64,000 nucleotides of DNA from Escherichia coli (GTDB taxonomy: Bacteria; Pseudomonadota; Gammaproteobacteria; Enterobacterales; Enterobacteriaceae), in assembly GCF_041248615.1 (NCBI RefSeq), contig NZ_CP158426.1; one strand, written 5' to 3'. The position numbers are program-made. Positions within the stretch are counted from its first letter, which is position 1. Every line of letters begins with the position of its first letter. Positions 39,001-42,000 of this stretch are shown here, piece by piece.

Positions 39001-42000
39001 GCAGTGTTTCCCATCGCCCCGGGGTATAAGACGACTCTTTAGGAAGGTAATAATGTTTATTGGCCCACTGAACTGTCGTCAGTGGAACAGGAATAATGAG
39101 AGATAAAAGCCCTGTAGCTATCGCACCGGCTGCATTAGCTGCCTTCTGCGCGTCTGAAATCATCGATCCACCCGCCCACGTTTTCACCGGCCTTAGCTGC
39201 AACATTGGAGGCTTTCGCGATTTCAGTTTTCACCACATCAAGGTGTGATGGTGAAATGTCCGGATATTTACGCTGTAATGTCAACGGCACACGCACAAGT
39301 ATCCCCGAAATCTCCTGTGCCACACGTTGCAGAATGAAGGTAAACAGTTCAGTTTCCAGCACTACTCCGTCTTCACGGGCATTTTTCAGTTCCTGCGCAT
39401 CTGCCTGCGCTTTTGTGAGCCGGTAGCGTTCATAGTCAATGGTGCCGGGTTGTAAATCTGACTCCGCTGCCGCACGCAAATCGTCCAGTTCTTTGCGGAG
39501 CTTTTCGTTTTCGATATCAGTTTCCCTCTGCGCATACCACTGAATTGCCATGGCAGTATCAAATACAGATTCAATGCCCTTACTACCTTTGGAGGCGCAA
39601 GGGAGTCCCTGAGACTGCCAGCGTTCAATCGTCCGCGGGTCCACGTTGAAAATTTCGGCAAGCCTCTTTTTATTAACCTTCATGAAAACAACCCATTATC
39701 AAATACAAGGCCCGACATGAAAACGCCAGAAAAAGGCATTTTCGGACACTTTCATGTCGGACCTTTACGGATGCAATATTAAAAAAAACAAAAAGTTATA
39801 TTCGAGAAGTACCGACACGATTTTCCCTGAAAAATTTTCATAAATAGTGAAAAACCGCGAGGTCGCCGCCCCGTAACCTGTTGGATCGACGGAAAGGACC
39901 CGAAAACGAGAATAATTATCACTTACAGCAAGAATCGAATCTGATCTATTATGGTGCTTGCTATTATGTGCCGGCACAAGTGCGTCGTTTACCGTCATTT
40001 CACACAGAGGCATCATCAAATGAAAATCAGAAATATTCTCGCTATCTCCCTTGCGACATCATCCTTCAGTTGCCTGGCATTTAAATCCTCGCCCAATGTG
40101 CTACCAGGACCAACGAATCAACTAACTGCGGTAGAAAGTAAAATTATCGGACATTTTTATGCCCCACACAGTACATTACCCGGAACAACCATCACAGGGA
40201 CATGTGACGCCTCCCCCGTCCCGGGATGCACCTGTCCGTTTTGTACTATGCTGCGTAGCCAAAACCGATAACATCCGCATTTACCTGGTATTCCATGATG
40301 AGTTCACGCAGCGACTGATAGAGGAAGGAAAGATGGTTAGTAAAAGCAAGGCGCATTGCCGCCGCATGCTGCAGGCATTGCAACAGACGAGAGCAGGTAT
40401 TTTTGACCAGTTGGAAAACTGCCAGCATACTTTGCCCGAGTATATCGCCATCTCATCGGAAACCAGTGCAACTCTTATTCATCGGGTTCCACCAGAGAAA
40501 AAGAAGAAATGAACAGTGAGGCGTTGTGTGGCATACAACGCCTTCTTCCATCATTCCTCGTCAGCCATGACAAAAATATAACCGCTGGCTCTTTCATTTT
40601 TCTCCTGCTTCCAGCCCCTCTCTACCTGGAAGCATCAAGGACGTGACGGCGTAAAGATAAATTGTCTCTTCACTCCCTGACAGGGGCGATTCTTTTCAAA
40701 TCGCCATTTCGCCATGGCCTTCACCACTTCATCACGAAACAAATTATGAGGCTCTGAGCGGAGAAAAACGATCCGTGTCACAGTCCCATCAGCACCAATA
40801 TCGAACTTAACCTCAACCAGCCCCTTGATATAATTTGCTGCAGCATATTCCGGATATCGTGGATACACCGTCACTAATTGCCGGGGCTCATCAGCTTTTT
40901 GCTGCGAGCATCCCACTGCCAGGACAGATAACAGAAAAAGTAGTAAAAGGCGTCTTTTCATTTTTATTCCTACGGGTCTTATTCTGACAATATATCCTGT
41001 GTTCCAGACTGCCACATCACCACATCCTGTGCCATTATCTGACTCACATTACATACATCGCATCGGGATACAGTAGTAGCACTTTCTGTAATACAGCTTC
41101 CTGTTTCTTCCACCATCGCACCGGGATAAACCCGCGAATCATTAACGCGGTAAAAACCCGGTGTGCATCGTTTTTAATTATTCCCGCACACTCACGCAGA
41201 AGGAATTCCCCGTCGGGCTACGGTCATGGTTAATGCGGGAATACGGCGACGATACAGCGCAGCTAAAAGGGTAATGGACGGATAGACCGGTTTATTTCAT
41301 TCCACAGGATTCTGAGTGTCCCCAACTTCCTCCAATAGTCTGAGCCCACCTGTGTAGTTTTAATTTTCATCAATCCATTTAACTATCGTTTAATTTTCTA
41401 CACATACGATTCTGCGAACTTCAAAAAGCATCGGGAATAACACCATGAAAAAAATGCTACTCGCTACTGCGCTGGCCCTGCTTATTACAGGATGTGCTCA
41501 ACAGACGTTTACTGTTCAAAACAAACCGGCAGCAGTAGCACCAAAGGAAACCATCACCCATCATTTCTTCGTTTCTGGAATTGGGCAGAAGAAAACTGTC
41601 GATGCAGCCAAAATTTGTGGCGGCGCAGAAAATGTTGTTAAAACAGAAACCCAGCAAACATTCGTAAATGGATTGCTCGGTTTTATTACTTTAGGCATTT
41701 ATACTCCGCTGGAAGCGCGTGTGTATTGCTCACAATAATTGCATGAGTTGCCCATCGATATGGGCAACTCTATCTGCACTGCTCATTAATATACTTCTGG
41801 GTTCCTTCCAGTTGTTTTTGCATAGTGATCAGCCTCTCTCTGAGGGTGAAATAATCCCGTTCAGCGGTGTCTGCCAGTCGGGGGGAGGCTGCATTATCCA
41901 CGCCGGAGGCGGTGGTGGCTTCACGCACTGACTGACAGACTGCTTTGATGTGCAACCGACGACGACCAGCGGCAACATCATCACGCAGAGCATCATTTTC

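What the first reader, a model, noticed from the sequence alone, without database searches (positions are those of the whole stretch)
39840..39880. Lambda-type cos site with conserved 12-nt cohesive end
aggtcgccgccc (39860-39871) is the reverse complement of the lambda cohesive end GGGCGGCGACCT and lies upstream of Nu1 with cosB-like flanking sequence. The prophage could therefore be packaged by, or package for, lambda-type terminases.
Basis: partly seen in the sequence, partly recalled or inferred. Interest (0 to 1): 0.3.

Follow-up and report, generated by a model that had tools for sequence, protein, structure and literature searches.

The report
Phage 21 cos site in prophage
The flagged 12 bases are the DNA-cutting and packaging site of a prophage whose whole packaging and head module matches the classic coliphage 21, so it is real and well understood, and λ's own enzyme should not be able to start packaging on it.

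Summary
GGGCGGCGACCT occurs once in the window, on the minus strand at 39860-39871, 177 nt upstream of a Nu1-family small-terminase gene.

It is the cos site of coliphage 21, not a new site. The 320 nt around it are base-for-base identical to the phage 21 cos junction. About 9.9 kb spanning cos, both terminase genes and the head genes carries a single mismatch to phage 21.

All annotated subsites are present with the same spacing as in phage 21: cosQ, cosN, I2, R3, I1, R2 (inverted), R1 and I0. TerS residues 1-54 are identical to PDB chain 7LWR, the best 54-residue TerS match.

The site sits in an apparently complete 51.8-kb phage-21-like prophage inserted in icd. The same cos occurs in CFT073 and NRZ14408, and similar sequence in hundreds of other E. 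coli genomes.

cosQ, cosN and I2 are shared with λ (68/75 identical). cosB and the TerS recognition helix are 21-specific. Published helper-packaging data show λ terminase packages 21-specific DNA about 10^4-fold worse than 21 terminase does. Only termination at a downstream cos is interchangeable.

This is already known and of low interest.

The parts
39895..39901 (-). cosQ (GGGTCCT), the packaging-termination subsite, 24-30 nt before the right chromosome end. It lies inside the old 'R4' box at 39891-39902.
   Evidence: Identical to the annotated cosQ of phage 21 (OL657228 42902-42908). λ has the same heptamer at 48473-48479, with the same spacing to the end. R4 annotation comes from M81255.
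39860..39871 (-). cosN cohesive-end sequence GGGCGGCGACCT. Inferred nicks: on the minus strand between 39872 and 39871, and on the plus strand between 39859 and 39860, giving 12-nt 5' overhangs. The extended terminase nicking region annotated in M81255 maps to 39842-39888.
   Evidence: Unique exact match. It equals bases 1-12 of phage 21 and λ. The 22-bp core TTACGGGGCGGCGACCTCGCGG is identical to λ's.
39828..39842 (-). I2 segment between cosN and cosB. It is an annotated IHF site and is reported as needed for efficient termination.
   Evidence: M81255 feature 196-210 mapped through the 100% identical alignment. Role taken from PMC4669245.
39807..39822 (-). cosB R3 (AATCGTGTCGGTACTT), a TerS binding site at bp 50-65 from the left end.
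   Evidence: OL657228 annotation, sequence identity, motif scan.
39786..39798 (+). cosB I1, the IHF bending site between R3 and R2. It reads AAACAAAAAGTTA on the plus strand, one mismatch from WATCAANNNNTTR.
   Evidence: OL657228 annotation 74-86; consensus scan.
39750..39765 (+). cosB R2, a TerS binding site inverted relative to R3 and R1. The motif TTTCATGTCGGACCTT reads on the plus strand.
   Evidence: It forms a 27-nt, 81%-complementary inverted repeat with the R1 region.
39706..39722 (-). cosB R1 (TTTCATGTCGGGCCTTG), a TerS binding site.
39686..39700 (-). I0, an annotated IHF site overlapping the ribosome-binding site of gene 1.
   Evidence: M81255 feature 338-352. A one-mismatch IHF consensus lies at 39686-39698.
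39135..39683 (-). Gene 1, the small terminase subunit (TerS-21), 182 aa. It has an N-terminal winged-HTH domain that reads cosB.
   Evidence: 182/182 aa identical to phage 21 gp1. Pfam Phage_Nu1 E=1.9e-81. Residues 1-54 identical to PDB 7LWR. 53% identical to λ Nu1.
37235..39163 (-). Gene 2, the large terminase subunit (TerL-21), 642 aa. It carries the ATPase and the endonuclease that nicks cosN.
   Evidence: 642/642 aa identical to phage 21 gp2. Pfam GpA_ATPase E=8.8e-57 and GpA_nuclease E=7.2e-71.

Best explanation
This is the cos site (cosQ-cosN-I2-cosB) of a phage-21-type lambdoid prophage that lies on the minus strand of the window and is inserted in icd.

Inferred mechanism after induction, excision and rolling-circle replication:
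- This anchors TerL-21 on cosN. TerL nicks the two strands 12 bp apart (minus strand 39872|39871, plus strand 39859|39860).
- Terminase stays on the cosB-bearing end, docks on the portal and translocates DNA towards decreasing window coordinates, through the terminase, head and tail genes.
- Packaging ends at the next cos of the concatemer, which requires cosQ, cosN and I2.

Initiation specificity is that of phage 21, not λ. Only the cohesive ends and the termination signals are shared with λ.

Shown here: sequence identity of every subsite and of TerS and TerL with phage 21. Inferred from the phage 21/λ literature: the binding, nicking and packaging steps, and that this particular prophage still performs them.
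For: - 401 nt around the site are 100% identical to M81255 (phage 21 cos and head operon), and 320 nt are identical to the OL657228 junction.
- Identity is unbroken for 1524 nt left of the nick. To the right it runs to +8424 with one mismatch.
- TerS, TerL, W, portal, D, E, FI and FII are 100% identical to phage 21; C is 500/501.
- The 21-type R box occurs exactly three times in 64 kb, all in cosB, with R2 inverted.
- IHF consensus sites lie at I1 and I0.
- cosQ and R3 are spaced from the nick exactly as in λ and 21.
- The TerS DNA-binding domain is identical to PDB 7LWR.
- The annotated near-identical genome NRZ14408 shows a gene set that looks complete: int, xis, a recT recombination module, N, cI, cro, cII, O, P, Q, lysis, terminase, head and tail.
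- The prophage is flanked by 217-bp icd repeats.
- Specificity data are in PMC4669245, Table 6.
Against: - No virion DNA from this strain was examined, so cleavage at this copy is inferred.
- The excised genome would be 51,787 bp. That is larger than phage 21 (42.9 kb) and larger than every phage record listed (largest 50,981 bp; largest among those sharing this cos or TerS sequence at 99% or more, 50,143 bp). It includes a 1.3-kb IS1414 insertion, so packaging of the full genome could be inefficient.
- The side tail fibre gene is annotated as partial in the near-identical genome.
Confidence: 0.93

Rival explanations
1. λ-specificity cos: the site is functionally interchangeable with λ cos, so λ terminase could both initiate and terminate on it.
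For: The 12-nt cohesive end is identical to λ's. cosQ, cosN and I2 are 68/75 identical. Termination is known to be independent of cosB type (PMC4669245).
Against: No λ-type R box lies near cos. cosB is 62/143 identical to λ. TerS is 53% identical, with four recognition-helix differences. Published discrimination is about 10^4-fold in both directions.
Confidence: 0.03
2. An intact site in a prophage that can no longer make viable virions. The cos and terminase are sequence-perfect, but the prophage is locked in. Possible causes are its oversize of 51.8 kb after the IS1414 insertion, or a defect elsewhere. The site would then be unused, or used only to package other DNA such as satellites.
For: - Unit length is 51,787 bp, against 42,931 bp for phage 21 and at most about 50.1 kb for phage records sharing this cos at 99% or more.
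- IS1414 interrupts sitD, with an 8-bp target duplication inferred from the overlapping alignment ends.
- The stf gene is annotated as partial.
- The λ rule of about 78-105% of 48.5 kb is recalled from memory (Feiss et al. 1977) and was not verified here.
- A review states that TerS-21 of 'CFT073 prophage 4' interacts with PICI Rpp proteins (PMC9026076).
Against: All packaging, head and regulatory genes look intact. The excess over known viable genomes is only about 1.6 kb. λ PaPa also lacks functional side tail fibres (from memory). A related icd prophage, NC-SV, is described as intact (PMC12803456).
Confidence: 0.2
3. The cos site of a phage-inducible chromosomal island or other satellite that borrows a helper terminase.
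For: PICI cos sites share cosQ and cosN with λ-like phages (PMC9026076).
Against: PICI cos sites lack repeated R boxes and are followed by rpp. This site has R3-I1-R2-R1 and is followed by full-length terS and terL and a complete head-tail module.
Confidence: 0.01
4. A chance occurrence of a GC-rich 12-mer.
For: None beyond the short length of the motif.
Against: 0 of 100 shuffles gave an exact match. The 47-nt composite pattern has chance expectation 0.00. The surrounding 9.9 kb is essentially identical to phage 21.
Confidence: 0

Closest known systems
cos of Escherichia phage 21 (GenBank M81255, X02501, OL657228), with terminase genes 1 and 2
   Same: Everything tested. The 320-401 nt spanning cosQ, cosN, I2, R3, I1, R2, R1 and I0 are 100% identical. 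TerS and TerL are 100% identical, and the head genes are identical apart from one residue. The icd integration site is also the same.
   Different: The rest of the prophage is mosaic relative to phage 21. It has a different immunity region and Q, and a porin gene where phage 21 has two tRNAs. It has a recT-type recombination module, and IS1414 sits in sitD. Its size is 51.8 kb against 42.9 kb.
cos of phage λ (J02459), with Nu1 and A
   Same: The 12-nt cohesive end and the 22-bp cosN core are identical, and so is the cosQ heptamer at the same distance. I2 is conserved. The R3-I1-R2(inverted)-R1 architecture and the cosN-to-R3 spacing are the same. terS starts at 189 here against 191 in λ.
   Different: The R-box sequences differ: TCRTGTCGG... 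here against CGTTTCC... in λ. cosB is 62/143 identical. TerS is 53% identical, with recognition-helix differences at positions 16, 20, 21 and 24. Initiation specificity is mutually exclusive.
Phage-21-like prophages at icd in E. coli: CFT073, NRZ14408, and the related NC-SV of AIEC NC101
   Same: The 320-nt cos segment and TerS are identical in CFT073 and NRZ14408. 633 of 5426 complete E. coli genomes hold a match covering at least 80% of the 301-nt cos query, and 241 records match at 99% or more.
   Different: The best complete-genome match to window 40000-64000 is 99.8% identical (NRZ14408). Other strains cover only 77% because the early regions and IS content differ.
cos of phage N15 and of E. 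coli PICIs
   Same: The cosQ and cosN core is shared.
   Different: Those elements have a single R3-type site and no I1, R2 or R1. PICIs carry rpp instead of terS and terL.

Membership tests
λ-like cohesive-end (cos) sites: λ, 434, φ80, 21, N15 group | 12-nt cohesive-end sequence identical or nearly identical to GGGCGGCGACCT, within a partly symmetric cosN core | tested here: met
   Exact unique match at 39860-39871. The 22-bp core is identical to λ's.
λ-like cohesive-end (cos) sites: λ, 434, φ80, 21, N15 group | Conserved 7-bp cosQ upstream of cosN | tested here: met
   GGGTCCT at 39895-39901, 24-30 nt from the nick, as in λ (48473-48479 of 48502).
λ-like cohesive-end (cos) sites: λ, 434, φ80, 21, N15 group | cosB with TerS-binding R boxes (R3-I1-R2-R1, R2 inverted) between cosN and terS | tested here: met
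   Three R boxes at 39807-39822, 39750-39765 (inverted) and 39706-39722. An IHF consensus lies at 39786-39798.
λ-like cohesive-end (cos) sites: λ, 434, φ80, 21, N15 group | Adjacent Nu1-family terS and gpA-family terL genes | tested here: met
   Pfam Phage_Nu1 E=1.9e-81; GpA_ATPase E=8.8e-57; GpA_nuclease E=7.2e-71.
λ-like cohesive-end (cos) sites: λ, 434, φ80, 21, N15 group | Virion DNA actually ends in 12-nt 5' overhangs at this site | not testable with these tools
   This needs virion DNA from the strain. It is known for phage 21 itself, whose sequence is identical here (refs 5-6).
Phage 21 packaging-specificity group | 21-type R-box sequences in cosB | tested here: met
   R3, R2 and R1 are identical to those annotated in OL657228 and M81255.
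Phage 21 packaging-specificity group | TerS with the 21-type winged-HTH recognition helix | tested here: met
   TerS is 182/182 identical to phage 21 gp1. Residues 1-54 are identical to PDB 7LWR.
   No match within two mismatches anywhere near cos. cosB is 62/143 identical to λ.
   The window TerS has PRTIERWQS there; overall identity is 53%.
PICI / satellite cos | cosQ-cosN followed by a single non-phage R3 and an rpp gene, with no terS or terL | tested here: not met
   Three phage-type R boxes and full-length terS and terL follow the site. The defining criteria come from PMC9026076.

The most novel reading that the evidence does not exclude
The cos site and terminase are perfect, but the prophage has grown to 51.8 kb after IS1414 inserted into sitD. 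That may be just beyond what this head can hold. On this reading the sit/iss-carrying prophage is effectively locked into the chromosome. Its 21-type TerS, TerL and cos would then serve mainly other DNA, for example as a helper packaging machine for Rpp-encoding PICIs in ExPEC strains.
Probability: 0.15. Interest if true: 0.3.

Novelty: already known. Interest (0 to 1): 0.05.

Why it matters
It matters little beyond correct annotation. It fixes the virion chromosome ends and the packaging direction of a common icd-integrated ExPEC prophage that carries sitABCD and iss/bor. It also corrects the expectation of λ cross-packaging. The site belongs to the phage 21 specificity group, so only 21-type terminases should initiate on it. 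λ-like terminases share only the cohesive ends and the termination signals. That distinction is relevant when predicting helper-satellite or inter-prophage packaging interactions in strains that carry several lambdoid prophages.

Tried and rejected
- Chance match: rejected by shuffles.
- λ-type cosB: searched for λ R boxes and found only background matches elsewhere in the window.
- PICI cos: rejected on gene content.
- Fillol-Salom 2019 (PMC6739421) was searched for 'prophage 4' and 'phage 21' and mentions neither. The statement about TerS-21 of CFT073 prophage 4 comes only from the review PMC9026076.
- Two literature searches for the λ packaging size limit gave nothing usable (one search was a syntax error; two searches returned irrelevant hits). 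The 78-105% rule is therefore cited from memory only.
- A search for a paper describing the PhiR (ECOR) phages found nothing.
- The first Pfam call failed on a wrong reading frame and was repeated.
- The tRNA scan found none.
- The promoter/terminator scan around cos gave only consensus-level hits at or near background. One 'terminator-like' hit is simply the cosN GC core followed by a T-run.

Full report
**1. The observation**

The plus strand at 39860-39871 reads aggtcgccgccc. That is GGGCGGCGACCT on the minus strand, and it is the only exact match in the 64-kb window. None of 100 dinucleotide-preserving shuffles produced an exact match. With one mismatch allowed the chance expectation is 0.18. 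A 47-nt pattern running from cosQ through the cosN core matches once, at 39855-39901, with chance expectation 0.00.

**2. What it is**

All relevant features read on the minus strand. From higher to lower window coordinates the order is:
- a pinholin / SAR-endolysin / spanin lysis cassette (42940-41770);
- bor/iss on the opposite strand (41445-41738; Pfam Lambda_Bor);
- a small TonB_C protein (40635-40961);
- the cos region;
- a 182-aa Phage_Nu1 protein (39683-39135; E=1.9e-81);
- a 642-aa gpA-type large terminase (39163-37235; GpA_ATPase plus GpA_nuclease);
- the W, portal, protease/scaffold, decoration, capsid, FI and FII genes, then the tail genes.

A BLAST search of the 401 nt around the site against 50,697 phage records gave 100% identity over the full length to M81255, the 'Bacteriophage 21 head gene operon'. 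In that record the cos subsites were annotated by the laboratory that defined them. The region is also identical to the complete phage 21 genome OL657228.

An ungapped comparison with OL657228 shows no mismatch for 1524 nt to the left of the nick. To the right there is a single mismatch (position 5523) in the first 8424 nt. TerS, TerL, W, portal, D, E, FI and FII are 100% identical to the phage 21 proteins, and C is 500/501.

**3. Anatomy in window coordinates**

Positions were obtained by mapping the phage 21 annotations through the gap-free identity.

| Subsite | Window coordinates | Sequence or note |
|---|---|---|
| cosQ | 39895-39901 | GGGTCCT, inside the old 'R4' box at 39891-39902 |
| cosN cohesive end | 39860-39871 | annotated nicking region 39842-39888 |
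| I2 | 39828-39842 | |
| R3 | 39807-39822 | AATCGTGTCGGTACTT |
| I1 | 39786-39798 | one mismatch from WATCAANNNNTTR |
| R2 | 39750-39765 | inverted; TTTCATGTCGGACCTT on the plus strand |
| R1 | 39706-39722 | TTTCATGTCGGGCCTTG |
| I0 | 39686-39700 | |
| gene 1 start | 39683 | |

The degenerate 21-type R box TCRTGTCGGNNCTT occurs exactly three times in the window. All three copies lie here, with R2 on the opposite strand. R1 and R2 sit within a 27-nt, 81%-complementary inverted repeat.

**4. Comparison with λ**

The alignment of the window, phage 21 and λ junctions shows a conserved core followed by a divergent cosB. From -30 to +45 relative to the left end, λ and the window share 68/75 bases. 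This stretch includes an identical cosQ at the same distance from the end and an identical 22-bp cosN core. From +46 to +188 they share only 62/143 in an ungapped comparison.

The λ R boxes (CGTTTCCGTTCTTCTT, CGTTTCCTTTCTTTTC, CGTTTCCTTTCTCTGT) have no counterpart near this cos.

TerS is 53% identical to λ gpNu1. At residues 16-24 λ has IRTIQNWQE and the window protein has [12 protein letters not shown]9026076 places the λ recognition helix at residues 17-24. The first 54 residues are identical to PDB chain 7LWR. The λ domain structures 1J9I and 6HN7 match at lower scores.

**5. Mechanism**

The mechanism is inferred from the λ/21 literature, since the sequence is identical to phage 21. According to PMC9026076 and PMC4669245:
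- TerS dimers dock on R3 and R2 across the roughly 180° IHF bend at I1.
- This anchors TerL, which nicks cosN 12 bp apart.
- Terminase stays on the cosB end, binds the portal and translocates DNA.
- At the next cos, termination needs cosQ, cosN and I2 but not a matching cosB.

In window terms, packaging would proceed from 39871 towards lower coordinates. The left chromosome end would be minus-strand 39871, and the right end would finish at 39872.

The specificity consequence has been measured (PMC4669245, Table 6). A 21-specific passive chromosome is packaged at 1.24 per cell by a 21 helper and at 1e-4 by a λ helper. A λ chromosome is packaged at 1.75 by a λ helper and at 8.1e-4 by a 21 helper.

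**6. Context**

The window holds a phage-21-like prophage on the minus strand. It is bounded by 217-bp, 95%-identical repeats of the 3' end of icd at 10609-10825 and 62396-62612. This gives a unit length of 51,787 bp, and icd itself follows at the right end.

The nearest complete genome, E. coli NRZ14408, is 99.8% identical over window 40000-64000. Its annotation shows a gene set that looks complete:
- integration and early functions: int, xis, a recT recombination module, kil, N, sieB;
- immunity and replication: cI, cro, cII, O, P;
- nin region and late control: ren, ninB, a Dam-type methyltransferase, rusA, Q;
- an ompC-like porin, the lysis genes, iss/bor, then terminase, head and tail genes;
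- sitABCD.

The identical 320-nt cos segment and TerS are present in NRZ14408 and CFT073. Of 5426 complete E. coli genomes, 633 carry a match covering at least 80% of the 301-nt cos query, and 241 records match at 99% or more. Strains with 100% matches include Nissle 1917, ATCC 25922 and the type strain DSM 30083.

A review notes that TerS-21 is encoded by 'CFT073 prophage 4' and interacts with PICI Rpp proteins. [quoted passage not shown]

**7. Caveats**

Cleavage at this copy has not been observed. The prophage is 51.8 kb, against 42.9 kb for phage 21. Among the phage records listed, those sharing this cos or TerS sequence at 99% or more reach at most 50,143 bp. The excess is about the size of the IS1414 inserted in sitD (15863-17177). 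The overlapping alignment ends there imply an 8-bp target duplication. From memory, λ heads accept about 78-105% of 48.5 kb. I could not confirm that figure in the held literature. Whether the full genome is still packaged efficiently is therefore an open but minor question.

**8. Verdict**

The site is the already well-characterised phage 21 cos, in a common ExPEC-type prophage. Novelty: already known. Interest: low.

Noticed in passing
window 10609-10825 and 62396-62612: 217-bp direct repeats (95% identical) of the 3' end of icd bound the prophage. The unit length is 51,787 bp, and the intact icd gene follows at the right end. This is the phage 21 attachment arrangement.
   Followed up: yes
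window 15863-17177: An IS256-family element (IS1414 in the near-identical NRZ14408 annotation) interrupts sitD of the prophage-borne sitABCD operon. Overlapping alignment ends against phage 21 (22297-22304) imply an 8-bp target duplication. The insertion makes the prophage larger than any phage record that shares this cos or TerS sequence at 99% or more.
   Followed up: partly
window about 31450-41395 (phage 21 coordinates -1524 to +8424): About 9.9 kb covering the right-end morons, cos, terminase and all head genes differs from phage 21 (which dates from the 1950s-60s) by one base. The tail region and other matching segments are only about 95-97% identical, and the immunity, Q and early-left regions do not match. 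This is a sharp mosaic boundary that suggests recent module exchange.
   Followed up: partly
window 43469-44611 (+): An ompC/nmpC-like porin gene sits between a QuuD-type antiterminator gene and the lysis cassette. Phage 21 has tRNA-Asn and tRNA-Thr at that position. ARAGORN finds no tRNA anywhere in the window.
   Followed up: partly
window 40020-40271 (+): An 83-aa ORF lies on the strand opposite to late transcription, just beyond cosQ. It has a signal-peptide-like N-terminus (MKIRNILAISLATSSFSCLA) and a Cys-rich C-terminus. It has no Pfam match and is not annotated in phage 21 or RefSeq. It may be a moron or may be spurious.
   Followed up: no
window 40635-40961 (-) and 41445-41738 (+): A small TonB C-terminal-domain protein (Pfam TonB_C, E=7e-13) and the Bor/Iss serum-resistance lipoprotein lie between the lysis genes and cos, as in phage 21.
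   Followed up: partly
window about 50180-50870 (+), especially 50461-50872: The 3' 412 nt of the prophage repressor gene (LexA-family cI) are 93% identical to λ cI (λ 37226-37637), while the 5' part does not match λ or phage 21. This suggests a hybrid immunity gene. A recent paper places an sRNA (svsR) at the 3' end of cI in the related NC-SV prophage.
   Followed up: no
window 39707-39765 and 39891-39908: R1 and R2 lie in a 27-nt imperfect inverted repeat separated by 5 nt. The cosQ region contains an R-like sequence (the historical 'R4'), seen as a 12-nt direct repeat with R1 at 83% identity.
   Followed up: yes
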